Below, piece by piece: positions 1 to 64,000 of a stretch of 64,000 bases of DNA. Source of the stretch: Gordius albopunctatus (taxonomy: Eukaryota); the NCBI GenBank assembly GCA_964276515.1, contig OZ193909.1, forward strand, positions 16,740,001 to 16,804,000, read 5' to 3'. Position 1 is the first letter of the stretch. The number at the start of each line of letters is the position of its first letter. Below the pieces are notes generated by a model, which made no database searches, was not told where the DNA came from, and was given only the letters and a program-made list of their open reading frames with translations. The position numbers and the translations under genes are program-made.

Positions 1-397
1 TGTTTTAATTTAAGTGAATGGAGGGGGGGTTTCACTAAACGACACTATCAATCTAAAACTTTTCAGAGGATTGTCATTTTGATCCGTTTATCGGGTCAGG
101 TTCTGTCTGGGTACCTTACGCAACAATAAATCTGTTTTAAAAAGAAAATGATGCAAAACGAAAGTCTTTGGAGCTCAATTTAATACATCACCTATTATTT
201 TTTACAAATTGGTTTATTTTTAGCCTGCATTTAGTGTTACGATGAAATATTTGGGATCTTTTTTCATGCATTTCTAAACGTGAAACAATTGTGCATATAT
301 ACTTTTTTTAAAGTAATTACTTTTAGCTTACTTACTTCTTTAAAAATAACACTTATTAAAATTTTGTACTTATTTTATAAATTACATTTCTTTAAAG

Positions 398-1446
398 CCT
401 TGATATACGCTTGCGTGGGCATTTTCGTCTTTTCGGTGCTGTACGAAGGCCTTAAAGTATTCCGAGAGCACCTCATGTCTCATCCACCCTTCGCCAATGC
501 CCGCAAGGGTCTCGGTTCGCCCGGACGTCACAAAAAAAATTGTTGCGCCTCCGGGGCTGGAACCCTCCACGACGAAGGGGTTAGCCCTTACGCCAAGATG
601 AACGACGTCGAGTCTCGCACCCCGACCCACTTCGCCATCGAACGCGGCTTTAAATCGTGCGATTGTCGATCTAGGTCAGTAAACATTGCTAATAAGGAAA
701 GTATATAAAGAGTTTACTCAAGCCATAAACTTATTAACGCGTTTCCTGGGGAAATTTAGTTTTTAATCGAAACCACTGTAATCAGCTATTCAATTAAAAA
801 TTATAAAAATGTATTAGTTTTGTTAAAATTATTAATGAATTTGTAGTCAAAATCTTTGGTCTCCAACTAAAGAAGGCTATTTTAGAGCAAACACTAAACA
901 ATTATTTTAACTAAACACGAAAATGTATTAATTTGATTAAAATTAAAAACAAATTTTTATTTAAACTTAGGTTTACAGCTAAAAAGACCCTTTTTAGACC
1001 AATATGTATCGCGACATCATTAGTTTTATGGAACAATACACCCCCCCCTCCCACCCCTTTTGGGATGCAAATCAAACTTAAATTATAATTGTCATGTATT
1101 TTGTAAATAAAAATCTCGTACACATTCTTCTGCAGACAATTCCGCTCTTTTAAATTCCTAATTTGCTCGGTATGCCAAACCTAAAAGTTTAGAGCCTTTT
1201 GCAGAGGATAATTCCTAGTTTTTACTTCTTTTCCATTGCAGTCCCGCCTTTTCCATCCTGGATCACGGTTTGCAATCCATCCTACACATCATACAAACCG
1301 GACTCGGGTTCATGTTGATGCTCATCTTCATGACTTTCAACGTTTGGATGTGCTTCTCCCTTTTGCTGGGCGCCGGGGTCGGTTACTTTTGTTTTGCTTG
1401 GAAACGCAAAATCGCCATTGTCGACGTCACTCAACACTGCAATTGA
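398..1446 (+). CDS. SLC31A1: Copper transporter CTR1-like (SLC31 family), paralog A; last two exons 398-674 and 1242-1446, 5' exons outside window
   Basis: Exon 398-674 gives LIYACVGIFVFSVLYEGLKVFREHL (CTR TM1). The AG|GTCAGT donor joins in phase to the ttgcag acceptor at 1241. The last exon reads ...LHIIQTGLGFMLMLIFMTFNVWMCFSLLLGAGVGYFCFAWKRKIAIVDVTQHCN*, with MxxxM, GxxxG and a tail resembling human CTR1 VVDITEHCH. Confidence 0.92.
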
Positions 1447-4400
1447 TGACAACAACAACAACACACACGATATTCACTTTGGTTTTTTTTGTGTTTAATG
1501 TAGAGCACGCAGCAGTATAACAATAAAATTTTTAATATTTATGAAACGTTGTCCTAAAGTGAACGAAAAACGGTCCAAAATCGATTTCCACGAGCAAAGC
1601 GTTCAAAAATTTGTATAAATTCACCCGCGTTTTCCAATAGACGCCATGGCGATATTTTTTACTTTTTAAAAATCAGCTTTAAAATTAAGTAAAAGAGCTA
1701 ATTGATTACAAATGATCCATTTTTCTAATTCCTGTGCACATATATTAATATATACATTACTTATAAGCACTCTTACTCGTAATTGTATACATGCACTGAA
1801 TCAAAACGCCTATGCGATTTTCATAGGTATATTTTATGTGTGAAAGGTAATTTTCCCAAGGTTTAAAGGCCATATATTTGACTGACCTTTATTTTTATTT
1901 TTTCGCTCGTTTAGTGTTTTTTATCATCATTTTTTGAATCGAAATCGTCACTTTTTTGTCATCGCGACTTAATATTACCCAAGGTCAGTTGTTTGTTTGA
2001 AATTTAATCGCGTATGGATTTTTTGTAATTTTCCAAAATTTATGATAATTCTGTTTATAAAATTTGTTAATGTTACTCATATGGAAAATGTCTATGTAAT
2101 ATATATAACGTTATCTGTTTTATAATTTGGTTAATAAAGGTATCCTAGTAATATATACAAATTTTATGGTTTAAATATATGCCGTGGCAAAAAATATCGA
2201 AATCTTGATATTGAAATAGTAAATTTTGTAAAATCAACCATCTAATTTTACCCTTCTAGTATTAATTTCTTATCTTAAATTTACAAGCTAGTATAGTTGT
2301 CAGAGACCAAAAAAGCCCTCTTTTTTATTTGATGTGTAATGTTTATTAATCCTAGTTTAGATTTAAAAAATACGATCATTAATTTTTTTAGTTCTTGGAA
2401 ATTATAAATGAATCGCTGCTAAAAGTTCAAAAGAATTTCGGGCCGAGCACCTCTAATGATTTGTGCATGATTAGACCAACATTTAGAAGGGATCGGGTGG
2501 ACAAAGCTATGAAATCAGAACCGGCCAGGTTATGGCTTAAAATTTTTTACAAATCTGATATCATAGTTATATATGTAGAAAAATGATTTAATTACGCTTT
2601 GCTTGTCTAACTGTCATCGGCTACCTTTCGGGACCCTGGCTTTTTAGAAACTTTCAACAAAGTTTTTGAGGCAGAGCTTATCGCTCTTTGGATGATTACT
2701 AAGTTGAACTGTATAAAATATTCCATTCTGTCATATCCTAGTTCAATCTTTTTTAATTTTTATAAAAATTGGAAAACTATCGTAACATTATATTGCCTAA
2801 ACATATTATATATAGAGAGGGGTGCAAATAAAATAATTTATAGGTCGCCAATCTGACCTGACTCTTTGCGCCCAGTCCGACCCCGCTCTAAATAAAAAGA
2901 TGACCAGCGGTTTATCTCAGCCAAGGAAGAATATAAAAAAATGATTTTGGATATAAATATCACAAACCATGTTCGAAGATTAAAATTATAGAAAAGATAC
3001 CGGAAACGAGTACGAATCTTAATAGAATCTTTATGATGGATTTGTCTAAAACTACTTGAGAATTTAAAATATTCATATTTGAATCAATTCAACTCAAATT
3101 TTAAATTTTTCTAACCGTGTTATTTAACAATGTGCTATCCTTGTAGGACTATAAATGCATCGAATGTTGGGGAAAAAATTTAAATTCAGCGTAAAAATGT
3201 ATTTTTTGGATCAAATATGCCTTTACTTGTTTAGGACATATTTTTGTCCAGTCTGGTCGAAAAAAAGGATGTGCCCCACTCTCCCCTCCAACCAATTTAT
3301 TTTGCTGAGGCAGGCCGGATCGCGCATTCTTTTTAATTTATATCATATGAACTGTAAACATCTAATATAGTCACCTAATTTTATACGTCCTAAAATTATT
3401 ATAATAAAAATTATTTTTTACTAATTATTCTACGTAACGTATGACTGTATAATTTTATAAATATCTAAAAAAGTGAAATTATAAATTTTTTAAAATATTC
3501 CATCATATAAAGCAGCGTTATTATAATTTATTCAATTAAATTAAATGTAGTGCCAATTCAAAAAATATCGTAAAAAAACTTTTTGCTTATACCATTTTGT
3601 TCTAATACTGGTATTAAATATAAGCAACGGTCAGAATTAATTTGCTAAGAATTATATAGCCAATTTCGCAATTATCCGATCTAGAATTAAAACCTAGACA
3701 AGTTGCCCAAAGGAAATATATAAGGTAATGAATTCGGTAGAAAATCAATAATGGAATTTGAGCCCGGGCAAGGGCGAAAAAAGTAAGGACAATCATCGGT
3801 CATTAGGTGAGCTATTTGCGAAAGCAAAATAAAAGTCTTTTACAGAAGCATAAGTCCACAGGCATTAACACCCCGTACAAGTTTCCACTGAAATTATTCA
3901 AAAATTACAGTTTAACAGGGCGGACGGAATGAACGGACAACTAAAAGCGAGCCCATAAATTGTATAGCAATTAATTTCAAATATACACTCGCTTCTAAAC
4001 TCAAATTCCACTCTCTTTTCCACCCATATAGGATATATTGAGAGCCACGAGAGATTAAATTTCAACCTCATTAATTCTAGCATAAAAGGCGATTTCTACA
4101 TGGCTAAAACTTATAAATAATGTATTGTAGAAAACTGTCAAACGTCAACACCTATATCCATATTTTGGTACATTTTAGGAATTAAAACTCTACACCTGGT
4201 CAAGCCGTAGTGACATAATGACTCCTAAATTTATTTTAATATATTAAAGATGATAACATGAGTGTAAATATAAAAATAATGCCGGAATTATTTAGATGGT
4301 CCGTGGCGCTATTTAATTTTACCCATACACGCATAATTATTTCAAGTGCTGTGCATATAGCCTTCTCAAGCTATATTATATATCATAAGAAACAAAATTT

Positions 4401-5283
4401 GTCCTATATGATAGCTTTAACCTTTTAATCTGACATTTGCTTCACAAGTTTTATAAAATTTTCAGCAAAACTTCATTTCGTTCTAAAAATTCAAGAATAT
4501 CATAGATGCCTGAGATTATACCTATATTGAAACGAGTCTTGTGATAACTATTGGACTCAAAAAACTTTTCATAGGAAATTGACAGACTTAAAACTAGGCC
4601 TTAAAACTTATCATTAAATTTTTATAAAAAATATATAATTTTTAGATTTAAGGTATTTACAAGTGCCTTTTATGCTGGATGTAATTATTTTTGTTATTTA
4701 AATAATTTCATTTACAATTAAGGATATTTTATTGCCAATGGGTTTATATTTATGATGAAAAATATTTTAATGTCAATGGGGGGGGGGGGTCCCGTATAGG
4801 CCAATAAAACAATAGACCGCCGAAAAGCTAATAATTTTTTAGCAAGTATAGAAACCGCCATTTTGTTGGAAATTGTAACCAAAAAACATAATTCAACATT
4901 ATTTATTGTCTTATTCTACATATTTTTTAAATTTATAGATTAAGCTAATAGTCTTATTTTATTTCTTAATGAATATATGGTATAAAAGTGGAAATATACC
5001 TGTGGTTAAGTTTTTCCTTAAAAATGGCAGCTATAATAATGTCGAAATGATTTTAATAGTAAAAATCAGCTGTTCAGCAGTCTATGTTTTTATTAGTCTA
5101 TGGTATGTATGTATAAGCCCCGATGACAAACAAGAGCTTAGCTAAATCGTCAAGCTAAGATTGAGTCCCATCTGACACCATAGGTGCATCTCGGGCCTTA
5201 TTAGTCTATGGGTTCCCCTTATTATTCGCCCCACGACGATCATTTGTATCGCTACGCCGCTGAAGTGGAATCGGACACTTGAA

Positions 5284-8200
5284 ATGCACCACGATATGGA
5301 GTAACATACAATGTCTTTTAAATTCAATTTTTTTGATAATAACACACCGAAAACCGTAAATAATAAAATAACAACTAAATATAATGCCGAAATAATTGAT
5401 TTTTATTGTGACAATAATTTGGAAATGTCACTAACGTCATCAGTTGGTCTGAAGTATTTGCCATCATATAATTATTCAAATTTTTCTAAAATACATCCTG
5501 GGATAGCCATTTCTGACATAATTCCTGATGAGTATGAAGGTGGATATAAGATTTGGGAATGCACCTATGATTTATATAATTATTTAAACAAAATGGATTT
5601 CAAACAAAAACATGTTTTAGACCTTGGATGTGGTTCTGGTTTTTTAGGAATTTTGGCACTTAAAAATAATGCAGAAGGAGTTACTTTTCAAGATTATAAC
5701 AAAGATGTTTTGCAAAATTTTACTATGCCCAATATTAAATTGAATATTGATACTATTAAGTATGATAAATGTATTTTTGTTGCTGGTGATTGGATAAGCA
5801 TAATTGAAAAGAAGGTGTTTGAGAAAAAATTGGATGTTATCTTAACATCTGAAACAATTTATAATCCTCAGAACAACTTAAAATTATATGAACTATTAAA
5901 ACATTCTTTGCAAACAAATGGCCAGATATTCATTGCAGCTAAATCACATTACTTTGGCATAGGTGGTAATGTAAAAAGTTTTTTAGAGTTAATAGACAAA
6001 GACAACTATTTTGATTACAATATTTGTTGGAAATCAATTGATGGAGTGCCACGTTTAATTATTCTTTTAAAATGTTCTTTAACAGGATGATGAAAAATTA
6101 TTTCCATTTTGGAATGAATGATATCATTCTCTTCAAAAATTGGAAGCCTACCACTACTGGAGGTAGTGAATTAGAATCTATTTTTGTTATAATTAACCCT
6201 TGATTACATGTTCTTGCTCAATAAATTTATTTTAAAAATTATTCTGTTTCTTTTTGATTATAATTAATTTTGTGACAAAAACTTTTTTATATATGAATTA
6301 ATTAATTTAGGGCAGTTCAACGCATCAAAAAATATTTATAAAGATGTTAATCTTTCAATTTTATTTTAGCTTAAATTTCTTGCCACCTCTTTACATCAAA
6401 TTTTTACACCTTTTATTAAATATTTGAGCATTTATTTTTTGTAATATAGATTTTATAAGGTATATAAGTTGATTATACATTACTATATGATTTAAATAAA
6501 CCCAACTCGAATATAAAATAAATATTTTTTACAGATTACAAATATAGCTTTTAAATTTCAGCTCATCCTCCATATCAACAATAATTTTTTTATCATAATT
6601 TTAGATTTTATTTTAATATTAAAACTTAAATGAATTTTACTATTATATAGGTAAATCTGATTTTTTTATTCTATATTTATAAGGTAAATTAATTCAAATA
6701 TAAAATTTGCCAAAAAGTTTTATTAATAAAAGTTGAATTCAGGTCGGGCCAAAAATGAAAAATTGGTTGGGCCCGGCCAAAATAAAAAGTCCTGCTTGGG
6801 CGAAAATAATTTATTTCCCAGGTCTCTATGCGTAGTACAACTAAAATTATGTTTTATTCCACAGAAACAATGCAATTTATGTTTATCCCTCAATCAAAAT
6901 AAATGTTTTTGAATTATCCTTTAAACTTTTAAAAAGGGACATCTTGCTTGCCAGATGTGAACAAAGCATTATTGCTTACATTTATTTTAGCCAGTTTAGG
7001 TAAGAAAACTAAAAGCTATATACCTTTAATTTTAAACAATCCCGAGTTTAGAGTGCATGAGTGTATAGTAGTTGTAAAAAGGACTGCCTTTTCTCTTAGT
7101 CGCTTTCCAGCCTTAGTCAAAATTTTAAAAAAAATAGACCAGATTCGCCCGTTAATCAACAAAACCTAGGCGTTTTTACAACACTAGTTTATAGCAACAA
7201 AAGACACTATATACCTGATACACACGAGTTGATGATCAAAATATTATTACAAATGGTAGAAAGACACCTAATTGAATTTTTAATGGTTTAACCATAGAGG
7301 TTAGAAACTTTTTCATACTACTATTTTTTGGGATTCCTTCTTTATGATAGACTTCTGTGATTTCAAATTTTAAAATGCTTTTTAAAAAATGAGACGTTAT
7401 TAATATCTTTGTCAGAATTAAAAATGGAATTCTGTGTGATATGAAAAGGATTTCTTGTTTTGATAAAAATGTGAAATAGGGCGAAAATAGGTAAATTATC
7501 ATTAAACAATGAAACTAAAAATTTAGAAAGTACCTATATTTTACTCAAGATGAAAGTTTTAACTAAGCACTATTAATAGCTTCACATATTTCAAGGGCCC
7601 GGAATTTTTATATTTTTGATAAAGAACTCAGCTCGGCCCAGAACTTTACGGACCATGGGTAGCTAACTAAGTGCAGTCTCTACCAGTATTGTAAAAACGA
7701 CTGGATTGTATTTGGTCGACCTGATTTTAGTCGTTTTACAGCACTAGTCTCTACACTCGTATGCGGTTGTGATTATTAGTTAGGCAGCGGATTTTAATCC
7801 TGAAACTTTTTAGTTTCTGTATCAAGAGGTTTAATAGCATTTAGGTAGGACGTTTTTACTAGAGTCTAAAAATGCTTAGTTTTGCCTTATTTGCTTCCTC
7901 TTCAGATCCCAAATATTATTTATTCTTTTTACATTAGTCTATAGTGTGGTTTTTTAGTTAAAATACAGAGCTCTTTCTCGGTGTATAAATTGATTTTAAG
8001 CCACAGAGGCCCACTACTTTCGTATCAAAATTTTTAATAAAATTCTTGTCATCTACTCCGACAAATTAACGTAAAATTTCTCAAATTGTTTTTACAAAGC
8101 TCATAAACCGCTATTGTCTTCACTTAAGACTTTCCATAAATATATGAGTTTGCCTGCAAGAAAGTTTCAAAATAATTTTTGCGTGTTAACGCCTGAAGCA

Positions 8201-10769
8201 AAGATTTTTAGGGTGCGCGATTCGAAGCAAAAATTTAGGACATTAATTTATTAAGTGTGTTCTATATAATGCATATGTTTGGCTTTTTTATAATTGACTT
8301 GATAGAACAAATTAAAAATAATATATATTTCCCTATTATCAACTCAAAGCATTTGTAATTGATGCTCGAATTTTCGTTTCGCGCTCATCACGAATGCCCC
8401 ACTAAATTGTTGGTTTGGTCCTTTAACAGCCCATCTCTTAATAACGAATTGATTGGGGTAAATTTAATAGCAAGTAGAGGCAGCAGCGGGCCGACTTTTT
8501 AAATTTAAAGCAAAAATTAATAAATATATTTCCATTTCACGTCGTTCGCTGCTAAATTAGGCTGGGCTTTAGAACTAATCAGATACGAAGGTAGTCCTAG
8601 CAAGTATTCTTGTAAAAGTTATTTGTTAAAATTTTTTGTTATTGTTAATTCGTCTTCCTGTTTTTGGACCAAAATCGGGACTATTGAGTCAGTAAAGAAG
8701 TTAAGTATGGCTAAATTAAATTGTGATACAGCTGCGTGTAAATGTTAATTTATAAGGTTGAATTAATTCCATTATCAATTCACGCGATAAAGGAATCGAA
8801 TGCTCTTCGTAGTGCTGATTTGAGATTTTTATTATTAATCAAATTTTAGCCATAACTTTAATAAATTGCAAAAAAATTTTGGATTTATAGGAGGTTGGGG
8901 GTGGGCGCCTCTTCCTGCCTCCCCCCTTAGCTAACTTCAGGCTAATAATAATTTTGAATATATACCATTATTTTGGTAGATATTGCCTCTTCGTAATTTT
9001 TTATATGATTAAATAACCCTCAACTTTACGGTAGAATTTGTGGGTGCTTGCGTGGCCATCATGTTAGCGGGCGTGGTCCACGAAGCCCTGAGGCATGGGC
9101 GGGTTCGGTTGACTCATTATTCGCGTTGTTTATGCGCCGTCGTTGCCGTGACAACCGCCTCCGACCCCGGCGGGCGTGAAGATTCTACCTCTCCCTTAAC
9201 TCCGGTCGGAACCGCCTCTCATACGGTCAGCTGTTGTGATCGATCAGCTGATGACTGCGTAAGGGGCAAAACGCCGTCTTTCCCCTACGTAACTTACGCA
9301 CCAACCGGACTAGGATCTTACGCGCCTTTCGATGGGTACTACGCTATGTATTTTGGTGTTATTTAAGAATTTTAAAGTCTGCCTCCTGAAATTCTAAAGT
9401 TCTTAAATAAATATTCTACGCAACAGAGTAGTTTTTATTAATAATTTGTTGAGTTCGCACCATGGGCTTAGCCAGGTTTTGGATAAGGGGGGGGGGCGAA
9501 AACTGTTTAAGCCCAATTAGGGGGGGGGCAAAACATTATTTTTTAATTATTAAGGGTTTCTGTATTGAAAAATATTTTCTTTTTATTTAGCCTTGTCCCC
9601 CCCCCTTGGCTACGCCCATGGTTCACACACTAGATAAGCTTACGAGCATGCGTCAATGATTTAAAATTTTATCACAACCTTGGCCTTTGTCGTGTTTAAA
9701 AAAATAACTCGATAGGTCTGTTCCATAAAAGCGCCAGTATCCATGTTAATGGTTTAAAAGGGATCATAACAATGGTCATGGGTCCATTAATTACTATCGA
9801 TTCAATCGCTGTGCAAAAAAACTATTTGAATCTTTAACAGCGAAAGTTTTATATATACATAATTTGAAATTGATATATTTTTGATTTATTAAAAATTTGA
9901 CACGTTGCACTTAAAATCTAAATTTGCATTTCTTTTTAATGAGTTATGGACTCAAATATTAATTAAAGAATTTATTGACCTTGTTTTTCAAATTGGAATA
10001 TAAATGTGCTGTATTATTAAATATCGCGAAATAAATTGAAACATCATTTTTTACTTTTTAGCTATTAAAATCAATCAAAAGTCCCCGCATTCTCGCGATG
10101 ATTTGACTTTTTGACCTTTGACAAATGGTCCGAGTGAAGAATAAAAAAGCAGACGATTTTCAATAAGCAAATGTCTTAATTTACATTCCCTTATTTAATT
10201 ATTTGATTTACCAAATATACCATTATTTATTAATTTTAATATAATGTACATGAAACATTACTTATTAAAAATTTTTTCGGTGACTTTAATGAAACAAGAA
10301 TATTTAAAGTCACTGTAACTCATCCATGGGCGTAGCCAGCGTTGGAATTAGAGGGGGGCAACAATGTTTTAGGGAGGGGAAAAATGATCATTTGTTGAAA
10401 TTTTAGCCAAATTTTTGGATTTAGAGGGGGTAAGCCGCCCTTCACTGCCCCCCCTCTTTGCTACGCCCATACAGTCATCCATGAAAACCGTATAAATTAA
10501 TGCCTAGACTTGGTCAATCAAGAAAATGGCGACCTTACCCATCATATTACATAGCGCTAGGACAAACTGTGCTGTACGCCCTACACACGACGCTCAGTTT
10601 TGGACTCATGTTGATATTCATGACTTTCAACGCTTACCTTTGCGGCTCCGTTATAGCCGGGCTCACTTTAGGCTACTTCATTTTCGTAGAAATTTTACCG
10701 GGCCGACTTATAGCTGGGTCTGATGTCATAACCACTCTGCAGACCATGGATCAACCATGTTGTCACTAA
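5284..10769 (+). CDS. Copper transporter (SLC31/CTR family), paralog B; exons 5284-5300, 6086-6162, 9035-9335 (or 9347), 10508-10769; ~218 aa
   Basis: All junctions are GT-AG and phase-compatible (657 nt total). Protein: MHHDMEMMKNYFHFGMNDIILFKNWKPTTTGEFVGACVAIMLAGVVHEALR...LMLIFMTFNAYLCGSVIAGLTLGYFIF...QPCCH*. It shows a His/Met-rich N-terminus, the FHFG..ILF..W motif, MxxxM, GxxxG and a C-terminal CCH. Confidence 0.88.
5311..6090 (+). CDS. METTL18: Histidine protein methyltransferase 1 homolog (METTL18/Hpm1-like), single exon, 259 aa
   Basis: N-terminal MSFKFNF, SDIIPDEYEGGYKIWECTYDL, SAM-binding VLDLGCGSG, FQDYN, GDW, DVILTSETIYN and AAKSHYFGIGG, all hallmark METTL18/Hpm1 motifs. Confidence 0.93.
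   Translation: MSFKFNFFDNNTPKTVNNKITTKYNAEIIDFYCDNNLEMSLTSSVGLKYLPSYNYSNFSKIHPGIAISDIIPDEYEGGYKIWECTYDLYNYLNKMDFKQKHVLDLGCGSGFLGILALKNNAEGVTFQDYNKDVLQNFTMPNIKLNIDTIKYDKCIFVAGDWISIIEKKVFEKKLDVILTSETIYNPQNNLKLYELLKHSLQTNGQIFIAAKSHYFGIGGNVKSFLELIDKDNYFDYNICWKSIDGVPRLIILLKCSLTG
6220..6225 (+). promoter_or_regulatory. Candidate polyadenylation signal for the METTL18 transcript, in CTR-B intron 2
   Basis: AATAAA ~130 nt after the METTL18 stop, followed by T-rich sequence; the motif is common in AT-rich DNA. Confidence 0.4.
7684..7746. mobile_element. 63-bp hAT-type mini-MITE
   Basis: Imperfect TIRs CAGTATTGTAAAAACGACT / AGTCGTTTTACAGCACTA; perfect 8-bp TSD GTCTCTAC. Confidence 0.8.
9461..9620. 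mobile_element. MITE, CATGGGCGTAGCC family
   Basis: TIRs CATGGGCTTAGCCA / TGGCTACGCCCATG; flanks gttcgcac/gttcacac (7/8 TSD). Confidence 0.8.
10325..10471. mobile_element. MITE, CATGGGCGTAGCC family
   Basis: CATGGGCGTAGC ... GCTACGCCCAT, internal G/C tracts, degenerate TSD. Confidence 0.75.
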
Positions 10770-12110: not shown

Positions 12111-15100
12111 ACTGTTCCTTTTTTTAAATATACGAATCTCACATTTTATCAAGCCTTGGCTCCGCGGCGACTAGGTCTTGTTAGTTAGCATTACACAACG
12201 TGCCTTAGCATTTATATTGATTTATACCGTCCATTCATATCATGCATTGATAAAATCTTTTATAAATTATCATAGATACAAATATATAGTTTTATCAAAA
12301 GAATTAATATTTGGAAAAACATTTACTACATATCTTTTAAGTTAAACGAGTCTATTATTATTTATTTTGCAAATTGTTGTGTGTTATTGCAAAATTCTGT
12401 TTTTATGGAGAAAAAAATATAAATTGAAGTTTAAAGACTTAAAAGTTTAGTCTGGGCAGAAAATTGCTTTAATAAATTTGTTTGCTTTTATGACTGAGTT
12501 AGTTGAAGTTTTATCTCATTAAAAATGTAAATTTTTAATTACTTTCTCCTGATTAAATTTATTTTTTCAGGTGATTAATTAAAGGCCCTCGTGGGAAGGG
12601 GAAGGGAAGGGGGAACTAAACTCATCTATACTCCGTATAAAAGTAGCATATTTGCTATGCAATTTATGGGCGAGAATAGGGGGGGGGGGTATTAAATGCA
12701 AAATGATTAGTTAATTATTTATAACAATTTTCCATCACTTTGGCCAGTGGTGATCTTTTATAATGGTTAGCAGACAGCCAAATAACTAACCTATAATTAT
12801 AATGAAGAAAAAAATTGATTTTAATCTCACTTTGGCCAATGATCATTTTTTCATTGTAGAGTAGCCAGCGGACCGCCAAAAAGCCATATTATCAATGGTA
12901 TTAACAAGAACAATATATTAATTTAATTTAAAAAAAATAAAAATCTTGTCCTCTCCGGGTATCGAACCAGCAATTAAGAATCTGCCCTCGCCAGGATTCG
13001 AACCCACATCAGTAGAGGCATAGGCTTTTGTAGGAGGGGGGAGCACAGGGACCCATATCAGTAGAGGCATAGGCCCTTGTAAGGGGGGGGCATAGGTAAT
13101 TATCAATGTTAACCTATACGACTTCAAAAACGTAAAAAAGAATTTCGAATCACAATTTGGCCAATGGTCATTTTTTTATTGGTCAGTAGCCAGCGGAGGA
13201 CCAAAAAGCCATATTATCAATGGTATTAACAAGAACAATATATTAATTTAATTTAAAAAAAATTTGTCCTGTCCGGGTATCGAACCAGCAAGTCAGAAAG
13301 TTGAAAGGAAGGACAACGGACGGAGGGACAACAAAAAGCGAGCCCATAAATTGTATAGCAATTAAAAATGTGTTAGCAAGCAGCCCTTCCCTTTTTATAT
13401 ACACTTTAAGTTGCTAAAAGAATTAGTTCCAAGTATATAAAATTTGTTGATTTTTGAAATCCCTATGCCCCTTGTGCTCCAGAAATATCTCATTAAACAA
13501 AAAGAATTGTTTTTTACAACATGGCCCTTTAACAAATAAATGCCCCTAATCAGGGAAGCTCGCTCCCCCAGACATTATATGTCCACCATCTACCTTAATA
13601 TTGGATGATAACATTAATTTTAGCCCTTCTGGTACAGATATTCTTAATCTAATACCTCATCAAACCTACTATACCACAAATGAAAAAAATTACATGACAT
13701 GGAGCAGAGCCTTTTTATCTCAAGCATTCCCACCAACCATATCCAGAATTCGAAGGGGGCCCGGGCGTGCATGCAACAGTTTTTAATAAACTTACTTAAC
13801 AATATTATTTCTCTCCCTCAGAACCTATCCTATTGGGAGAAATTATTTAAATTCTCTTTTTACATTTTATCTATTCCTCAAGAAAAGGAAGCAAATATCA
13901 TTCATAATATTAAACAATTAGTTTTAAATTTTGACAGTCAAAACAGCCCTCCAGCATATAACATGGATAGAAAGGAATCCCAAATATTAACCCATAAACA
14001 AAAAGCGAATAAAATCTCTATAAAAATTCACTCATTCAACATCAAAAGCGCAATGAAATACCTTGAAGAAGACAATTCATTTTTGAATCCTTCACAAAAA
14101 TCATATGAAGAAATGGAGTCTATCGTCTACTTACCGATCGCCCTCGCAACCTTCAGATATTTCTTTTAAGTCATCAGACATTCGAGATGCCATCTTATCC
14201 TTTCCTCTATGGATTCTGCAGGTGGTCTCGACGGCATAAAACTAATTTTTTTAAAAGATCTTATAACAATTGATAATAATAACTCCTCCATCTTATAGAC
14301 TTACTCACCAAATTTTTTAACCTTTTAGTCAATGGGAGTATATCTAAAGAAATAACGCCCATAGTCTTTGGAGCTAAGCTTTTAGCTATTAGGAAGGCCG
14401 ACAATTCAGCCAGGCCTATCGGCGGTGTCTTCCGAAGAATTATTTCTAAATTAATTTTCTCGGCGATCAAACCAATATTGACCCCTACTTTAATTCCGCA
14501 TCCACCAGGCTTCGGGGTCAAAGGAGGGTGCGAGATAGCTACCCATGCCGCACGCTTAACCCTGGAACACCTCCTTCTAGGTGACTCCTTTATAAAACTG
14601 GATTTTAAAAATGCTTTCAAGAGCATTCGCCGCACTGCTTTCATTAATGAATTTATAAATCTATTTCCCCAATACACCAACTACATCATTTTAAGTTACG
14701 GATGTCCTTCGATTTTGAAATTTGGAGAATTCTTCCTTGCATCCGCAGAAGGGATCCAACAAGGCGACCACCTAGGCCCCCCTTTATTCTGCTTGGCTAT
14801 AAATTACCTAATTAACGAAATTAACAAACATTGTAAACTCACCCTTAATGTCTGGTATCTAGATGACGCCACTCTTGTTGGCACCCCTGACAACCTAGTC
14901 CAAGCACTAGAAGTAATACAAGCTTTCTTCCCCACTTTAAACTTATGTTTAAACGCTTCTAAAAGTGAAATATATTCTGACTTGGATACCATTCATCCAA
15001 AGTTTTTTGACTTTGCCAAAATTAAAAAAGACAATATCTATGTTTTAGGCGCACCTATAGGAGGCCCTGAATGCCTCAAAAAAATTTTAGACAAAAATCT

Positions 15101-18100
15101 CTCTTCTTTAAAAACCAAATTAGACATTTTTAAATCTATACCCTCTCATCATTCCTTTTTCATTATAAAAAATTATTACAACATTAGCAAAATTTTATTC
15201 TGCTTCCGCTCCACACAAGCTTTTTTATTTAAAGAAGTTTTACACGACTATGAAAACTTTTTTAAATCCACTCTTGAATCAATTTTAAATATTTCTTTTA
15301 ACACCAATACTTGGCTTCAAGCCACACTTCCCACAAAATCCGGTGGTCTAGGTATTCGCTCACCATCTGCGATTTCCCTAGCCGCGTTTATTTCTTCCTC
15401 TCTATCTTTTAAACATCATATTAACGACCTTGTCCCATTCCCACTTAATCCCTCCATAAATCAAGCCCTATCCTTATGGAATGAGAACGTCAACGTAGGA
15501 GCTAATATACCACAATCATACGCTCAAAAAGATTTGGATGCAAGTTTGGTGTAGCGGTCCGTTGCTTACCTTCTCTCGCCATGCGACGCCAAACAGCATT
15601 GCAATCTTAGGTCATTGCCTTTCGACCAATCAGCCATGAATGGCTTGAAGCTTACCCTAGTAAGTTTTCGGGAATGTCTTTAGAGAACCCTACACTATCC
15701 TACAATATAGCCCTCCGCTTGGGCTGTAAATACACGTCTCCATACCCCTGCCGGCTTTGTAATTCACTTGTAGATGAGGAAGCGCGTCACCCTCTGTATT
15801 GTAAATTTAACAAAAGCCGGTATGGTAGGCACCAAAAAATAAATACACTGCTTCAAGCTGCCCTCAAACGGGCAAAAGTTCCTTCGATCCTTGAACCTTC
15901 AGATCCCTCTCTCGAAGTGCGGATGCGTCCGGACTGTTCGTCACTTATCCCATGGGACAAAGGCCTTTTCCTAAAATGGGACTACATCTGTATTGACATA
16001 TTTTCCCCCTCCAACGATACTCACGACCCCCTAGGATCGGCAGAGCATCGGAAATCCTTAAATTATTCAGCTTTATCCCAAACCTCGATTTTTATTCCTA
16101 TCGTCTCATCGTGCTCAGGATTTGGGAAGAGCGCATTAATTTTTTTTAAAGAACTCAATAAACGCTCGCCCCCTTGTAAAATATCGAATAGTTTTTTACT
16201 ACGACAATCAATTGCCATCGCGATCGCTAAATCTAATTTTTATTCTTTGATAGATTCAATGCCCATTCTCAAAGATGAAGAAACGGATATTGAGTTTTAA
16301 TCATTTTTTTATAAATGTTTTTGTTCTTATATCTTTTTAACAATTCCGCTCAATATTTAATACTTTTTATTTAATAAAGCAAAAAAAAATTGTGATTTGT
16401 TGATTTAGATATTACTAAAAAATGAAACAAAAACTATAGTGAATTTGTCATATCTAATCACAACAGCTTGAATTTATTCTTTATTTAAAATATTTTTCCA
16501 TTAAATATAAAATGGTTTTCTCGCTACCTTTCGTATGAAAATAAAAGAACTCGTTCAAATAACCATTTTAAATTTAATATATATTTAACTCAAGTATATA
16601 TCTGTTTAAATTTTTGCAAAACTTTATGCATCATATATAAGATTTAATTATATTTATTAGCATAAATTAAAAGGAACGACAAACTTAAATTAAATAATAT
16701 TTAGGAGAACTTAACATTAAACAATAAGACTAATATAATAGTTAGTTTTGTATCGTCATAGCCTAAAATCTACAGTAATAAAATGAAGAGATAGTAGAAA
16801 AACACCTTAAAATTTGGTTTAATGAAGTCGTTTACAATCTATCAAACCCCTGATCAAAAGTGTTGGAATGGCCCCCTGTCCGAGTGCCTCTTAAAGTCTC
16901 TTATTAATGGCGCTTCGGCAGAGGAACTTCCAGCGCTTAGGAGCTTAGCTCCACGCTCAGGTCACGAATGACCCGAAGCTTTCCCAAGTCGTAACCTCGG
17001 TCTACTATTATCGAACAACGATATCCGAGGCCTAAGATTATGACAAAATAGTTGCTGAAAAAATTTCTTAACTTTGCAATAATTCCCTAAAATCGAATGG
17101 CCATCATGGTCTACACTGTAATAGCAACAAAGCCCGGTATCTTTGACATACCGTGGTTAACAAACTTATAATATCCCCTCTATTCTTGAACTCAGGCCTC
17201 TGTGAAGATAGCAAACAACCCGTTGGCCAATCTATAGGCGTTTGGGAAAAAGGACTCATTTTAGCATGGAACTATAGATGTACTGACGTATTCGCCCCAT
17301 CTTATCACAACAAATATCCCCTGTCCACTGGAAATTTTCAATTACTCTGAAATTAACAATACTATAATTTTTGGTTCCATTGCGACAACCACCCTAACAA
17401 CCTTTGGCCTCCAAGCCTTACAAATTAAGAAAATAGGGAAAGTTGTAATATAAAAAAACTTCGTAAAAATAGCAAAAAATCACGAAACGTGGAAACGTTT
17501 CTAAAAGCGCGCGTTATATTTATTTAAGTATATGGTGATGTATTACGGTCTCTAGAATATTTATTGGTTACAGATTTATATATTGTAAAAAAAACGGGCG
17601 TAGTTGAGTAAAAAATTGAGACACAAATGACAAAGCAATCATGGAAAAAAGTTTAACGCGAAAAGTAGCACCATAACGATAAATAAGTACAAACAACGCA
17701 GTATAAATAATCCGCTAGATGGCGCCAACCAAATTAAAAAACATGGTTCCCGCTGTCGTAGTGTGATAAAAAGTGTTTACAAACCATCTACAATGCTAAG
17801 GCAATAATCTGGCCAAATTTGGTGGCAATCGGTTGAGAACTTTAAAAGTTATTAGCGTACAAAAAAACGTGACTTAGATTTATATATATATAGATTATTT
17901 GAAAAAATCGTTGAAAAGGATTATTTTTTCATTGTTTTTTAAGCTGCTAAAATAATGAAACATAGCCCCGACAATTTTAAATTTAAAACACTTTACTTTA
18001 CGAAGGAGAAAATCAACTTTTTTATTTCCGTTTTTTCCTTTATCTCACATAAATATTAATAATATATTTTTACAATAATTTTGAGCGATTTCCTTTTCAG

Positions 18101-18523
18101 AGCTACATTCCCCGTGATGAAATTTGATATTATCATAAACCGGTATTAAATTGAAATTTGAGCAAATAATCTATGTTAAACCTTTTTAATGGCGCTGCTC
18201 TTAAAATTATGAAAAATAAAATATTTCAAAATTTATTAATTCGTAACACATCTCGAATTAAAATTAATTCGTCTTAGCCGGTTTAATTTTAGCAACCTTG
18301 CTTTTATTTTTGAACATTGAATTATTCATCTTAATATATCTCCAAAACGGAAAATTGGTTTAGTTTGCTCTTATTAAATTTTAGATACAAGGTTGAAATA
18401 AACAAAATTACAACTTTGTGGAATGAACTTAATTTTTCCGAGAAAAGGCCTCACTTAAATTTAATTGGGGAAAAATCTGTTTTGTTTTATCCTGGTGTTT
18501 ATTTTTGTAAGGCGTTATTTTAG
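12111..18523 (+). CDS. Possible partial orphan gene; candidate exons 12111-12179, 12276-12340, 18101-18142, 18385-18523
   Basis: AG/GT-bounded segments join in phase: TVPFFKYTNLTFYQALAPRRLGL-IQIYSFIKRINIWKNIYYISFK-ATFPVMKFDIIINR-YKVEINKITTLWNELNFSEKRPHLNLIGEKSVLFYPGVYFCKALF*. No start exon found; some donors are weak. Confidence 0.3.
12584..13364 (-). mobile_element. Non-autonomous Helentron/DINE-1-like (HINE) element
   Basis: Subterminal inverted repeat TTGCTATGCAATTTATGGGC / GCCCATAAATTGTATAGCAA, GGAC-type microsatellite near one end, internal tandem duplication; homologous to 37484-38690. Confidence 0.6.
14478..15554 (+). pseudogene. Reverse transcriptase fragment of CRE-like element
   Basis: YLDD catalytic motif; frameshifted from the upstream RT segment and ends in a premature stop. 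Confidence 0.85.
15674..16300 (+). pseudogene. Zn-knuckle/RLE endonuclease fragment of CRE-like element
   Basis: CRLC...HPLYC...RH...PSILEP...RPDC...WDKG..LKWDY. Confidence 0.8.
16850..17440 (+). pseudogene. Older 3' remnant of a CRE-like retroelement (copy at ~25439-26029)
   Basis: Broken frames give EAFPSRNLG, GHHGLHC and VWEKGLILAWNYRCTDVFAPSY, parallel to the RLE region of the neighbouring element. Confidence 0.7.
17480..17894 (-). mobile_element. Possible non-autonomous Helitron fragment
   Basis: Minus strand begins A|TCTATATATATATAAA, resembling a Helitron 5' TC end; no clear 3' hairpin-CTRR. Confidence 0.35.
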
Positions 18524-18690
18524 TTTGTTTTCGTCTTAGATAATTTATGATGCAATTAACTATCATCAATGTACTTAATTTTTCCAAGAAACTACCATAA
18601 ATTTGTGTTTATCAATTACTATTTATATAATAATACAACTCCATAAAACATTTATATCGAATTTTCAACTACTATTTGTACACATTTAAA

Positions 18691-21600: not shown

Positions 21601-22359
21601 AGGTTAATTTTGACCTCTAACCTTGAGGCAGGTTTTAGCGTTTCTAAAGAGGTCAAGGTTTTTTGGAAAGCCTAACCTAACCTCTTAGGTTGCGTCGGCA
21701 AAACCTGAGGTTTTCCCATCACTACCCCTTACCCTAGTGGGCCCAGCAGCGAGCCCGAATTTTTGGTTGTTTAATTTTTGCTTTTAATTACAAATAAAAT
21801 GGAGGGAAATTTTTTTGCCAGATTTCCCACCCCCCTTGTGAAAATCCTCGCTACGCGCCTGGCGTTTTATGATTCATTTTTTTTATTGGTTAAACATTTT
21901 TTTAAATACCCACTCTTTTATTATCATTTTTACATCTATTTGGGGGCATTCAATTAAAAATCTAAAGATACTTCTTAGCATAGCTCATCTACTCAACTAA
22001 TTTAGAAGAAAGGGGTTGTTATTATCTTCTAAATTATATCATTAACCTACAATTTATTTACTAATTTCTAATATACTCAACTAATATTTCACATATAAGC
22101 CCGATAAAAAGACTTATATTACCATCAGTTTTTTAATTGCAAGGTATTTCAGTATCGCACCATAATTTGTATTTTGACCAGAAACCCATTTTTTTATTTA
22201 GGTGCAGATGATTATAAGATTATGAAATGGGAATTAAAGCCCCACAACAAATCACACGCTTATCTTGTAGTGAATCCAAATAACTATTCATCCAAAAGAC
22301 ATCATTCCACCTTTAATTATACAATTATTAATAATTATGGCTACTACAGGACGCACGAG
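18691..22359 (+). CDS. Orphan gene exons 1-5 in duplicate copy 1 (18691-18742, 18817-18840, 18883-18923, 19287-19368, 22202-22359)
   Basis: Same exons as the complete model at 27280-34462. Confidence 0.6.
19033..19204. mobile_element. MITE, CATGGGCGTAGCC family (copy at 27622-27793)
   Basis: CCTGGGCGTAGT ... ACTACGCCCATG; flanks aaagcaca/aaagcata. Confidence 0.75.
20277..21724. mobile_element. Foldback-like hAT non-autonomous element
   Basis: TIR TAGTG(G/A)TGGGAAAA, perfect 8-bp TSD CCCCTTAC, ~450-bp internal inverted arms (~20357-20812 / ~21190-21640). Confidence 0.9.
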
Positions 22360-23972: not shown

Positions 23973-24580
23973 CGTGGGCGTAGCCAGGTTTTGGATTAGG
24001 GGGGGAAGGGCAAAACGTAAACTTTTTTTTAATTTTTAAGGGTTTTTGCATTGAAAATTTTTTTTCGCCATTTAGGCTGACCCCCCCCCCGGCCAGAGGT
24101 TTGAACACGCCAAAAATAAAATCGGGTTCGTGTTCGGTTTTGGCATAAATTTTGAAATCGGGTTCGTGTTTGGGTTTAAGGAATTGGGTTCGGGTTCAAG
24201 AAATTATATTACACTAATAATACATTTTTACCTTCAAAAAAATATTGAATAGTTAACTTAATTTTTAAATAGCACCTAATTAAATCAATTATATATATAA
24301 TACTTACAAATAATTCTTGAGATAATTAGTATTGATTAATGAATGAAAAATGGCGGAAACATAAAAATATTGAAATTAAAATCGTATGCTTTTCGTTACA
24401 TTGTCATGATAGAGAAAACTGAGATATTCAATTCACAGTATATTTTTGAATTAAAAATCGGGTTTTAAGGCTATTTTTAAAAATGGGTTCGGGTTCGGGT
24501 TCTGTTATACATTGGGTTTTACCCGGTTCGGGTTCAGGGATTCGGGTTCGGGACAAATCCCCCCCCTGGCTTCGCCCATG
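23973..24580. mobile_element. CATGGGCGTAGCC MITE carrying a nested GGGTTC-repeat element (copy at ~32561-33174)
   Basis: Perfect TSD TAAAGAGA; insert at ~24094-24560 with (GGGTTC)n subterminal repeats sits inside the poly-C tract. Confidence 0.8.
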
Positions 24581-48985: not shown

Positions 48986-48989
48986 AAAA

Positions 48990-61713: not shown

Positions 61714-62592
61714 ATGCACCACGATATGGAGTAACATACAATGTCTTTTAAATTCAATTTTTTTGATAATAACACACCGAAAACCGTAAATAATAAAATA
61801 ACAACTAAATATAATGCCGAAATAATTGATTTTTATTGTGACAATAATTTGGAAATGTCACTAACGTCATCAGTTGGTCTGAAGTATTTGCCATCATATA
61901 ATTATTCAAATTTTTCTAAAATACATCCTGGGATAGCCATTTCTGACATAATTCCTGATGAGTATGAAGGTGGATATAAGATTTGGGAATGCACCTATGA
62001 TTTATATAATTATTTAAACAAAATGGATTTCAAACAAAAACATGTTTTAGACCTTGGATGTGGTTCTGGTTTTTTAGGAATTTTGGCACTTAAAAATAAT
62101 GCAGAAGGAGTTACTTTTCAAGATTATAACAAAGATGTTTTGCAAAATTTTACTATGCCCAATATTAAATTGAATATTGATACTATTAAGTATGATAAAT
62201 GTATTTTTGTTGCTGGTGATTGGATAAGCATAATTGAAAAGAAGGTGTTTGAGAAAAAATTGGATGTTATCTTAACATCTGAAACAATTTATAATCCTCA
62301 GAACAACTTAAAATTATATGAACTATTAAAACATTCTTTGCAAACAAATGGCCAGATATTCATTGCAGCTAAATCACATTACTTTGGCATAGGTGGTAAT
62401 GTAAAAAGTTTTTTAGAGTTAATAGACAAAGACAACTATTTTGATTACAATATTTGTTGGAAATCAATTGATGGAGTGCCACGTTTAATTATTCTTTTAA
62501 AATGTTCTTTAACAGGATGATGAAAAATTATTTCCATTTTGGAATGAATGATATCATTCTCTTCAAAAATTGGAAGCCTACCACTACTGGAG
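61714..62592 (+). CDS. CTR paralog B exons 1-2, duplicate copy (61714-61730, 62516-62592); continues beyond window
   Basis: Same sequence as 5284-5300 and 6086-6162. Confidence 0.82.
61741..62520 (+). CDS. METTL18: METTL18-like histidine methyltransferase, duplicate copy
   Basis: Identical translation to 5311-6090. Confidence 0.92.
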   Translation: MSFKFNFFDNNTPKTVNNKITTKYNAEIIDFYCDNNLEMSLTSSVGLKYLPSYNYSNFSKIHPGIAISDIIPDEYEGGYKIWECTYDLYNYLNKMDFKQKHVLDLGCGSGFLGILALKNNAEGVTFQDYNKDVLQNFTMPNIKLNIDTIKYDKCIFVAGDWISIIEKKVFEKKLDVILTSETIYNPQNNLKLYELLKHSLQTNGQIFIAAKSHYFGIGGNVKSFLELIDKDNYFDYNICWKSIDGVPRLIILLKCSLTG

Positions 62593-64000
62593 GTAGTGAA
62601 TTAGAATCTATTTTTGTTATAATTAACCCTTGATTACATGTTCTTGCTCAATAAATTTATTTTAAAAATTATTCTGTTTCTTTTTGATTATAATTAATTT
62701 TGTGACAAAAACTTTTTTATATATGAATTAATTAATTTAGGGCAGTTCAACGCATCAAAAAATATTTATAAAGATGTTAATCTTTCAATTTTATTTTAGC
62801 TTAAATTTCTTGCCACCTCTTTACATCAAATTTTTACACCTTTTATTAAATATTTGAGCATTTATTTTTTGTAATATAGATTTTATAAGGTATATAAGTT
62901 GATTATACATTACTATATGATTTAAATAAACCCAACTCGAATATAAAATAAATATTTTTTACAGATTACAAATATAGCTTTTAAATTTCAGCTCATCCTC
63001 CATATCAACAATAATTTTTTTATCATAATTTTAGATTTTATTTTAATATTAAAACTTAAATGAATTTTACTATTATATAGGTAAATCTGATTTTTTTATT
63101 CTATATTTATAAGGTAAATTAATTCAAATATAAAATTTGCCAAAAAGTTTTATTAATAAAAGTTGAATTCAGGTCGGGCCAAAAATGAAAAATTGGTTGG
63201 GCCCGGCCAAAATAAAAAGTCCTGCTTGGGCGAAAATAATTTATTTCCCAGGTCTCTATGCGTAGTACAACTAAAATTATGTTTTATTCCACAGAAACAA
63301 TGCAATTTATGTTTATCCCTCAATCAAAATAAATGTTTTTGAATTATCCTTTAAACTTTTAAAAAGGGACATCTTGCTTGCCAGATGTGAACAAAGCATT
63401 ATTGCTTACATTTATTTTAGCCAGTTTAGGTAAGAAAACTAAAAGCTATATACCTTTAATTTTAAACAATCCCGAGTTTAGAGTGCATGAGTGTATAGTA
63501 GTTGTAAAAAGGACTGCCTTTTCTCTTAGTCGCTTTCCAGCCTTAGTCAAAATTTTAAAAAAAATAGACCAGATTCGCCCGTTAATCAACAAAACCTAGG
63601 CGTTTTTACAACACTAGTTTATAGCAACAAAAGACACTATATACCTGATACACACGAGTTGATGATCAAAATATTATTACAAATGGTAGAAAGACACCTA
63701 ATTGAATTTTTAATGGTTTAACCATAGAGGTTAGAAACTTTTTCATACTACTATTTTTTGGGATTCCTTCTTTATGATAGACTTCTGTGATTTCAAATTT
63801 TAAAATGCTTTTTAAAAAATGAGACGTTATTAATATCTTTGTCAGAATTAAAAATGGAATTCTGTGTGATATGAAAAGGATTTCTTGTTTTGATAAAAAT
63901 GTGAAATAGGGCGAAAATAGGTAAATTATCATTAAACAATGAAACTAAAAATTTAGAAAGTACCTATATTTTACTCAAGATGAAAGTTTTAACTAAGCAC

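What the first reader, a model, noticed from the sequence alone, without database searches (positions are those of the whole stretch)
5284..6225. METTL18 ORF fills intron 1 of a copper transporter gene on the same strand: a candidate splice-or-retain two-protein switch
Seen: ATG CAC CAC GAT ATG GA|GTAACA at 5284-5306 and tgttctttaacAG|G ATG ATG AAA at 6086 splice in frame to MHHDMEMMKNYFHFGMNDIILFKNW. The 785-nt intron (5301-6085) is occupied from its 11th base by the 259-aa METTL18 ORF, whose last codons double as the 3' splice site and whose TGA lies in exon 2, overlapping the CTR ATGs (ATGATG). The same GTAACA donor appears at my predicted SAP30BP junction (47174). Known: CTR proteins start with His/Met-rich copper-capturing tails followed by an F.FG..LF..W motif. 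Inference: with only 10 nt between donor and METTL18 ATG there is no room for a separate promoter in the intron, so one unit probably makes CTR (spliced) or METTL18 (retained).
Basis: partly seen in the sequence, partly recalled or inferred. Interest (0 to 1): 0.92.

Follow-up and report, generated by a model that had tools for sequence, protein, structure and literature searches.

The report
Methyltransferase gene fills copper-transporter intron
An intron-free gene for the methyltransferase METTL18 lies on the same strand inside the front end of a copper-transporter gene, with its stop codon overlapping a transporter Met codon; a horsehair worm appears to keep the same pairing, so one transcription unit likely makes either protein by splicing out or keeping that stretch, although no RNA data confirm it.

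Summary
A 259-codon, intron-free METTL18 ORF (5311-6090) starts 10 nt after a GT donor. Its last codons carry the AG acceptor of a copper-transporter (CTR-B) exon, and its TGA overlaps that exon's first ATG. The His/Met mini-exon (5284-5300) is in the right phase and rare by chance (7-13 of 3000 simulations; threshold chosen after seeing it).

New evidence: in the horsehair worm Gordionus, METTL18 and the CTR-B orthologue carry consecutive accession numbers. Their protein ends fit the same overlap: equal tail length, acceptor-compatible residues, same MMK start. The pairing is therefore probably old.

Unspliced, exon 1 becomes a 6-codon uORF. No AG lies before the METTL18 ATG, so METTL18 cannot be spliced onto exon 1. 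An AATAAA in intron 2 could end its mRNA.

Against: only DNA-like runs exist. The Gordionus CTR-B models lack a His-rich first exon, and the donor is weak. Start-site choice or a dicistronic/trans-spliced message remain open. Nothing supports copper regulation.

Verdict: a real, unusually tight variant of the known shared-5'-end nested gene (ChAT/VAChT, NUP62/IL4I1). Splice-or-retain is the best guess, about 50%.

The parts
5240..5245 (+). Initiator-like TCATTT in a GC/CpG-rich patch (5211-5300) just downstream of a genomic repeat that ends near 5197; candidate shared start region (weak)
   Evidence: arthropod Inr consensus recalled from memory; CpG o/e 1.44; loose ends at 5197
5284..5300 (+). 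Predicted coding exon 1 of CTR-B (MHHDM plus 2 nt); if unspliced it is a 6-codon uORF ending at TAA 5302-5304, in frame with METTL18 and 6 nt before its ATG
5301..6085 (+). Predicted intron 1 (785 nt); weak donor, 4 of 9 matches to the consensus; no AG before the METTL18 ATG
5311..6090 (+). Intron-free METTL18 ORF, 259 aa, authentic start (first 7 residues identical to the Gordionus protein); GC3 0.22, intron-like composition
6055..6085 (+). Branch-like TTAAT (6055), T-rich tract and CAG acceptor, all inside METTL18's last codons
6086..6162 (+). CTR-B exon 2 (starts G ATG ATG; Ctr N-terminal motif; phase-1 donor at 6163); first ATG overlaps the METTL18 TGA; would be 3' UTR in the METTL18 mRNA
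6220..6225 (+). AATAAA 57 nt into intron 2 with a T-rich stretch downstream; candidate METTL18 polyadenylation signal
9035..9347 (+). CTR-B exon 3 (first membrane helix and loop); 3' end unresolved, phase-2 donors at 9336 or 9348
10508..10769 (+). CTR-B last exon (MxxxM and GxxxG helices, ends CCH); acceptor inferred
61714..62655 (+). Second copy of the locus, identical over 5100-6300, part of a 99.93% duplicate of 1-7570
398..1446 (+). Neighbouring paralogue CTR-A, last two exons (398-674, 1242-1446; copy at +56430); its 5' exons are not in the window

Best explanation
The METTL18 ORF and the CTR-B exons overlap on one strand, and one pre-mRNA starting shortly upstream of 5284 likely yields either protein by alternative processing. 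If intron 1 (5301-6085) is removed, the His/Met mini-exon joins exon 2 in frame, splicing continues to exons 3 and 4, and the product is a copper transporter with a short metal-binding tail. If the weak donor is not used, the intron stays and the transcript would be cut at the AATAAA in intron 2. METTL18 would then be translated by ribosomes that leak past, or reinitiate after, the 6-codon uORF left by exon 1. Because METTL18's last codons are the branch, pyrimidine tract and AG, and its stop lies in exon 2, one molecule cannot give both proteins by normal scanning. Origin (inferred): an intron-free METTL18 copy came to lie in the first intron of a duplicated CTR gene and took over its promoter, before the split from Gordionus. 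Shown: sequence anatomy, protein identities, neighbouring accession numbers and compatible protein ends in Gordionus. Inferred: start site, the 5300^6086 junction, retention, the poly(A) site, translation route and origin.
For: Exon 1 is the only >=4-His/Met ATG..GT mini-exon in the non-redundant window and is in the right phase; 7-13 of 3000 by chance. It supplies the Met/His run that precedes the FHF motif in homologues such as P0144, P0149 and P0162. Gordionus METTL18 is CAK9290137.1 and the CTR-B orthologue is CAK9290138.1/139.1, on the same 93.7 Mb record. The two METTL18 tails have the same length from the conserved Arg (12 residues) and both end in residues compatible with NYA-GNA-stop. 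Of 113 other homologues, 9 share the length, 6 share the residue pattern and 0 share both. The Gordionus tail allows more pyrimidines than any of the 113 by maximal codon score, and 4 of 113 reach it by mean score, as expected if it doubles as a 3' splice site. Both CTR-B proteins begin MMK(N/D)YFHFG at the overlap. METTL18 has intron-like composition: GC3 0.22 against 0.40-0.66 for five CTR exons; GC 0.27 against 0.29 for intron 2. The donor is weak, 4 of 9 against 5-7 of 9 for seven other inferred donors, and no AG lies between donor and METTL18 ATG. A fly-like METTL18 locus is split over several frames by introns (L001), so the intron-free state is not universal.
Against: No RNA evidence for the junction or for a shared start. 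Both Gordionus CTR-B models (212 and 211 aa; the 212-aa one is also the RefSeq protein XP_065325147.1) start at the exon-2 Met codons with no His-rich exon 1, although that annotation used RNA-seq (passages of 10.1101/2023.06.26.546503). The RefSeq METTL18 model starts at an internal Met. The retained mRNA has two upstream ATGs, one in good context (G at -3 and +4), and a 6-nt gap to METTL18, much shorter than the 39-140 nt optima quoted in PMC10275272 (passages; those figures are for reinitiation after premature stops). The weak donor also fits 'not a donor'. The window's own tail is not unusually pyrimidine-rich (36 and 26 of 113 reach it). The two species' end residues are one base change apart at each codon, so descent alone explains part of the match. 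The spliced tail would be short: only 5 of 41 homologues have the motif within about 10 residues of the start. 17 ATG..GT phase-2 options exist in 4000-5320, and the exon-1 frame is open upstream to 5176 without an ATG, so a longer or different first exon is possible. An AATAAA at 5362 inside the ORF must be ignored.
Confidence: 0.5

Rival explanations
1. Start-site choice rather than a splicing decision. CTR-B is spliced from exon 1 as proposed, but METTL18 mRNAs start further downstream, inside exon 1 or at the donor (about 5287-5305). They lack the CTR ATGs, and their 5' exon is too short to splice. One broad promoter, two start-site groups.
For: It removes the uORF problem (two ATGs and a 6-nt gap). 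The METTL18 ATG has A at -3. The GC/CpG-rich patch runs up to 5300. Rat VAChT has its own promoters inside the ChAT intron (reference title and passage in PMC3053374).
Against: It leaves a METTL18 leader of at most about 25 nt. The only Inr-like word found is upstream, at 5240 (weak). No start-site data.
Confidence: 0.25
2. Exon 1 is not used. CTR-B begins at the exon-2 Met codons, either by termination-reinitiation on a dicistronic METTL18-CTR message (AUGA overlap), or after trans-splicing or splicing of some other upstream exon to the AG at 6085.
For: The ATGA overlap appears kept in both species. The Gordionus CTR-B models start exactly there. AUGA overlaps drive reinitiation in caliciviruses and influenza B (passages of PMC10275272). 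Some Ctr database entries start just before the motif (4 of 41 within 6 residues; these may be truncated models).
Against: It leaves the in-phase His/Met mini-exon as a 0.2-0.4% coincidence. The Met-Met is expected from the Ctr motif anyway. No UGGGA word lies within 500 nt upstream of the stop (the TURBS core word is recalled from memory). The acceptor-like signal in the Gordionus tail argues against pure reinitiation, though not against trans-splicing. No paper on spliced leaders in Nematomorpha was found.
Confidence: 0.2
3. One of the two genes is silent or decaying and the overlap has no regulatory meaning.
For: No expression data; CTR-B is divergent (best hit E 1.7e-8 among 1.84 billion representatives).
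Against: Both frames are intact, and both have orthologues in Gordionus (METTL18 118 of 250 aligned residues identical; CTR-B exon 2 80%, exon 4 65%).
Confidence: 0.05

Closest known systems
Cholinergic gene locus (VAChT/unc-17 inside the first intron of ChAT/cha-1)
   Same: Unrelated gene on the same strand in the host's first intron; a common 5' exon; a binary processing choice. The mouse VAChT ORF is a single exon (passages of PMC3053374; PMC3875643).
   Different: There the shared exon is untranslated, and in C. elegans the nested gene has three further exons of its own; the two products work in one pathway. Here the shared exon would be coding for the host and a uORF for the guest. The guest has no acceptor of its own, fills the intron, and overlaps the host's 3' splice site and Met codon. 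No functional link between the products is known.
NUP62 / IL4I1_2 of eutherian mammals
   Same: [quoted passage not shown]
   Different: The NUP62 ORF is a spliced terminal exon after shared non-coding exons. METTL18 would need intron retention, or a start inside exon 1, and shares bases with the host's splice site and exon 2.
C. elegans unc-60 (UNC-60A/B)
   Same: A common first exon that carries the start codon, with a splice/polyadenylation switch between two products (passages of PMC3875643).
   Different: The two products are paralogues and both are spliced from exon 1.
AUGA stop-start overlap with termination-reinitiation (caliciviruses, influenza B)
   Same: Upstream stop and downstream start share the four bases AUGA (passages of PMC10275272).
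   Different: Those need a TURBS element; no UGGGA word lies near the stop here, and the overlap coincides with a splice acceptor.
METTL18/Hpm1 histidine methyltransferases and SLC31/Ctr copper transporters
   Same: Ordinary members by sequence. METTL18 methylates a histidine of ribosomal protein RPL3 (search listing and abstract starts of PMC9177149 and PMC8034639).
   Different: Only the gene arrangement is unusual. CTR-B is a divergent paralogue with Asn where most homologues have Met just before the YFHF motif.

Membership tests
METTL18/Hpm1 | Class I methyltransferase of the Methyltransf_16 family, best match to METTL18 | tested here: met
   54.9 bits vs cut-off 21; only PDB hit at 1e-10 is human METTL18; named hits are histidine protein methyltransferase 1 homologues
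METTL18/Hpm1 | Conserved N-terminal M..FxFxF start | tested here: met
   103 of 121 homologues start so; first 7 residues identical to the Gordionus protein
METTL18/Hpm1 | Methylates an RPL3 histidine | not testable with these tools
   needs an assay
Ctr/SLC31 copper transporter (CTR-B) | Pfam Ctr domain across exons 2-4 in order | tested here: met
   profile positions 2-23, 22-58 and 98-151; exon 4 alone 57.8 bits vs cut-off 25.3; exons 2 and 3 alone below cut-off
Ctr/SLC31 copper transporter (CTR-B) | MxxxM and GxxxG helices, Cys/His C-terminus (motif roles recalled from memory) | tested here: met
   read from the exon 4 frame
Ctr/SLC31 copper transporter (CTR-B) | His/Met-rich outer N-terminus | tested here: inconclusive
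   present only if exon 1 is spliced; absent from the Gordionus models
Shared-5'-exon nested locus (ChAT/VAChT, NUP62/IL4I1 type) | Unrelated ORF on the same strand within the host's first intron | tested here: met
   conditional on exon 1 being the host's first exon
Shared-5'-exon nested locus (ChAT/VAChT, NUP62/IL4I1 type) | Both mRNAs carry the same 5' exon | not testable with these tools
   no RNA run listed
Shared-5'-exon nested locus (ChAT/VAChT, NUP62/IL4I1 type) | Nested gene joined to the shared exon through its own splice acceptor | tested here: not met
   no AG between 5301 and 5311; it works like this class but by retention or start-site choice
Shared-5'-exon nested locus (ChAT/VAChT, NUP62/IL4I1 type) | Arrangement conserved in relatives | tested here: inconclusive
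   consecutive accessions and compatible protein ends in one relative; its DNA could not be read
TURBS-type termination-reinitiation | Stop and start within 20 nt | tested here: met
   ATGA overlap at 6087-6090
TURBS-type termination-reinitiation | 18S-complementary TURBS word shortly upstream of the stop | tested here: not met
   TGGGA only at 5499 and 5554 (word recalled from memory)

The most novel reading that the evidence does not exclude
The splice-or-retain choice is a copper-responsive switch. Low copper favours the weak donor and makes the importer; sufficient copper favours retention and makes METTL18. The His/Met exon doubles as a uORF that tunes METTL18 output, coupling copper uptake to histidine methylation of the ribosome through one 17-nt exon.
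Probability: 0.07. Interest if true: 0.85.

Novelty: new variant of a known kind. Interest (0 to 1): 0.55.

Why it matters
If confirmed, this is a very compact case of two unrelated proteins from one transcription unit. A whole enzyme ORF serves as an intron, its last codons are the 3' splice site, and the host's first coding exon becomes its uORF. It would show intron retention used to make a separate essential protein rather than to silence a gene. It gives a small, fully testable minigene for how a weak donor, an intronic poly(A) site and a uORF set the ratio of two products. It also warns that annotation pipelines truncate both genes at such loci, as the Gordionus models may show. Same-strand nested genes with a shared 5' end are already known, so the class is not new, and no link to copper is shown.

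Tried and rejected
RNA evidence: no RNA holder listed. The two runs are contigs that cover introns and intergenic DNA evenly and show no joint at 5300^6086; this says nothing about expression. No whole genome is held.

Relatives' DNA: the metagenome scan gave 1 locus from 153 candidate stretches, a fly-like METTL18 with introns and only about 20 nt of downstream flank, so it cannot test the neighbourhood. Gordionus DNA is in no collection on hand.

Protein searches: a search with part of CTR-B exon 4 among longer proteins found nothing (60 candidates). The two-exon profile found CTR-A but not CTR-B of Gordionus. The full HMMER search found it. No search for fused METTL18-Ctr proteins was run. 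RefSeq numbers of the three Gordionus proteins are not adjacent (XP_065312754, XP_065325147, XP_065313395); only the submitters' numbers are. That these follow genome order is my assumption, supported by the CTR isoforms and paralogues being consecutive.

Structure and repeats: no special RNA structure around exon 1 and the donor (z 0.44). No informative repeats at the locus. The sigma-70 scan does not apply to an animal.

Literature: 'METTL18' with 'copper transporter' gave 2 papers, neither about such a locus by title and abstract start (listing only). The combined nested-gene terms gave 0. Nematomorpha with spliced leader and trans-splicing gave 0. The library lacks most subscription papers, and no supplements were read.

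Earlier scan notes near this place, by sequence and by the specific words gave nothing.

Rejected: the 47174 GTAACA as support for the donor (junction unverified); the second copy at +56.4 kb as independent evidence (identical sequence).

Full report
1. The observation. ATG at 5284 opens MHHDM plus two bases, followed by GTAACA at 5301. The METTL18 ATG is at 5311. The acceptor CAG ends at 6085, the next exon starts G ATG ATG, and the METTL18 stop at 6088-6090 overlaps the first of these ATGs. The intron would be 785 nt.

The 259-aa ORF is an ordinary METTL18: Pfam Methyltransf_16 at 54.9 bits, 1007 homologues among 1717 candidates with named hits called histidine protein methyltransferase 1, and human METTL18 as the only solved structure at E<=1e-10. 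Its start is authentic: 103 of 121 homologues begin M..FxFxF, and the first seven residues equal those of the horsehair worm Gordionus protein CAK9290137.1 (the 121 are the best 120 of 1007 hits plus one cluster member).

The downstream exons form a Ctr copper transporter, here CTR-B: 6086-6162, 9035 to about 9340, and about 10508-10769 match Pfam Ctr positions 2-23, 22-58 and 98-151 in order. Both CTR paralogues have their best matches in Gordionus and METTL18 has it among its top five, so the window is probably from a related nematomorph (inference).

2. Is exon 1 more than chance? In the 47.8 kb non-redundant window, both strands and three phases, only one ATG-initiated, stop-free mini-exon with at least four His/Met ends in GT. 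It is this one, in the phase that exon 2 needs. Simulated sequence gave such an exon in 7, 9 and 13 of 3000 trials; with three His/Met, in 170, 137 and 264 of 3000. The rule was chosen after seeing the exon, so the true odds are somewhat weaker. Joined to exon 2 it restores the Met/His run that precedes the FHF motif in homologues. Against it: the donor matches the consensus at 4 of 9 positions, versus 5-7 for seven other inferred donors. Seventeen ATG..GT phase-2 options exist in 4000-5320. The exon-1 frame is open upstream to 5176 without an ATG. The resulting tail is short: 5 of 41 homologues have the motif within about ten residues of the start.

3. What the unspliced form looks like. Exon 1 then reads MHHDME and stops at TAA 5302-5304, in frame with METTL18 and 6 nt before its ATG. 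There is no AG between 5301 and 5311, so METTL18 cannot be spliced onto exon 1. It needs retention or a start site inside exon 1. Its 3' UTR would be exon 2, and an AATAAA at 6220 with a T-rich stretch behind it lies 57 nt into intron 2. A branch-like TTAAT at 6055 and the T-rich tract lie in METTL18's last codons. METTL18 has GC3 0.22, against 0.40 for exon 2, 0.49-0.66 for four other CTR exons and 0.34-0.66 for four SAP30BP-like frames; its overall GC of 0.27 is like that of intron 2, 0.29. A fly-like METTL18 locus is interrupted by introns (L001), so the intron-free state here may be derived (inference from one locus).

4. Conservation. In Gordionus the submitters' accession numbers run METTL18 CAK9290137.1, CTR-B CAK9290138.1 and 139.1, CTR-A CAK9290140.1 and 141.1, all on one 93.7 Mb record. 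Orthology is clear: window exon 2 is 80% identical to Gordionus CTR-B and 39% to CTR-A; exon 4 is 65% against 44%.

The protein ends fit the same overlap. Both METTL18 tails have 12 residues from the conserved Arg and end Thr-Gly or Ile-Glu, which can be coded NYA-GNA-stop, giving a YAG acceptor and an ATG over the stop. Of 122 aligned rows, 116 have the Arg; leaving out the window and two Gordionus rows gives 113, of which 9 share the length, 6 the residue pattern and none both. The five residues before the last one in Gordionus allow more pyrimidines than in any of the 113 by maximal score, and 4 of 113 reach it by mean score. The window's tail is unremarkable, reached by 36 and 26 of 113. 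Gordionus CTR-B begins MMKDYFHFG where the window has MMKNYFHFG. With METTL18 only 118 of 250 residues identical between the two, the pairing is probably old. This rests on protein ends and numbering, not on DNA, and descent explains part of the match.

The same records count against a conserved coding exon 1: both Gordionus CTR-B models start at the exon-2 Met codons, in an annotation built with RNA-seq (passages of 10.1101/2023.06.26.546503). Gene predictors often miss a 17-nt exon across another gene (own knowledge), and the RefSeq METTL18 model is itself cut short at the front, so this is moderate evidence.

5. Mechanism. Best (0.5): one pre-mRNA. Splicing of intron 1 gives CTR-B; retention with cleavage in intron 2 gives METTL18, translated past or after the uORF. 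Rival (0.2): exon 1 is unused and CTR-B starts at the overlap, by reinitiation on a dicistronic message or after trans-splicing. AUGA overlaps do this in viruses (passages of PMC10275272), but no TURBS word is near. Rival (0.05): one gene is dead; both frames are intact and conserved. No RNA run is listed, so none of the first three can be separated here. Nothing links the choice to copper.

6. Assembly caveat. Window 1-7570 recurs at 56430-64000 (99.93%) and 16541-24929 recurs at 25130-33526 across a 200-N gap. The locus 5100-6300 is identical in both copies. A 5000-base contig of run X1 fits 55152-60151 with no difference or gap, across five places where the first copy differs, which suggests those differences are assembly errors. 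Whether the repeat is a real tandem or a false duplication is not settled. A 1293-base contig spans 5179-6471 without a difference, so the locus itself is sound.

7. Comparison with known systems. The class is known: VAChT in the first intron of ChAT with a common 5' untranslated exon (passages of PMC3053374; PMC3875643); NUP62 as a retroposon sharing the IL4I1 promoter (abstract and passages of PMC1198218); unc-60 with a shared start-codon exon. Unchecked notes from this scan list several more same-strand nested housekeeping genes in other animals, which lowered my novelty estimate. What differs here: the guest has no acceptor of its own, the host's coding exon is the guest's uORF, the guest fills the intron, and its last codons are the host's splice site. 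Searches for METTL18 with copper transporter and for the nested terms showed no report of this pairing by title or abstract start; the library is incomplete.

8. Verdict. A real feature, probably conserved, and a new variant of a known kind. The splice-or-retain reading is the most likely single mechanism but is unproven. Interest 0.55; 0.85 if a copper-responsive switch were shown (probability about 0.07).

Noticed in passing
window 398-1446 and 56828-57876 (CTR-A): CTR-A has only its last two exons in the window. A profile of the Ctr N-terminal motif scores Gordionus CTR-A 37 bits and window exon 2 39 bits, and nothing else in the window above zero. Its acceptor is in the same phase as CTR-B exon 3, so exon 2 could in principle also feed CTR-A about 50 kb downstream. 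A missing piece of assembly is at least as likely, since Gordionus CTR-A has its own long His-rich N-terminus.
   Followed up: partly
window 1-7570 / 56430-64000 and 16541-24929 / 25130-33526: Two near-identical duplications (99.93% and 99.80%), one flanking a 200-N gap; probably assembly overlap, but a recent tandem of about 48 kb is not excluded. The Gordionus order METTL18, CTR-B, CTR-A matches the order within the repeat unit.
   Followed up: partly
window 42885-47190: SAP30BP-like gene (Pfam HCNGP) with two separate frames that each look like an N-terminus, at 42885 (AT-rich) and 44024 (GC-rich): possible alternative first exons or a partial duplicate. Its last exon is unclear after 47174.
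   Followed up: no
window 5208-5282: A 24-codon ATG frame with an HDDH word ends one base before the ATG at 5284 and has a phase-2 GT at about 5246; a second possible uORF or alternative first exon.
   Followed up: partly
window 13684-16300: Non-LTR-like retroelement with a reverse transcriptase frame (RVT_1, E 1e-19) broken into several frames; high copy in the runs.
   Followed up: no
window 49893-53815: 776-codon ORF with no Pfam hit between 662-nt inverted repeats (99.5% identical): a probably recent DNA transposon; hAT fragments lie at 48570-49766.
   Followed up: no
P0121 / P0005 and P0335 / P0190 (Gordionus records): The RefSeq METTL18 model starts 37 residues inside the full protein, and the two CTR-B models differ by one Met; both may reflect annotation trouble at an overlapping locus.
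   Followed up: partly
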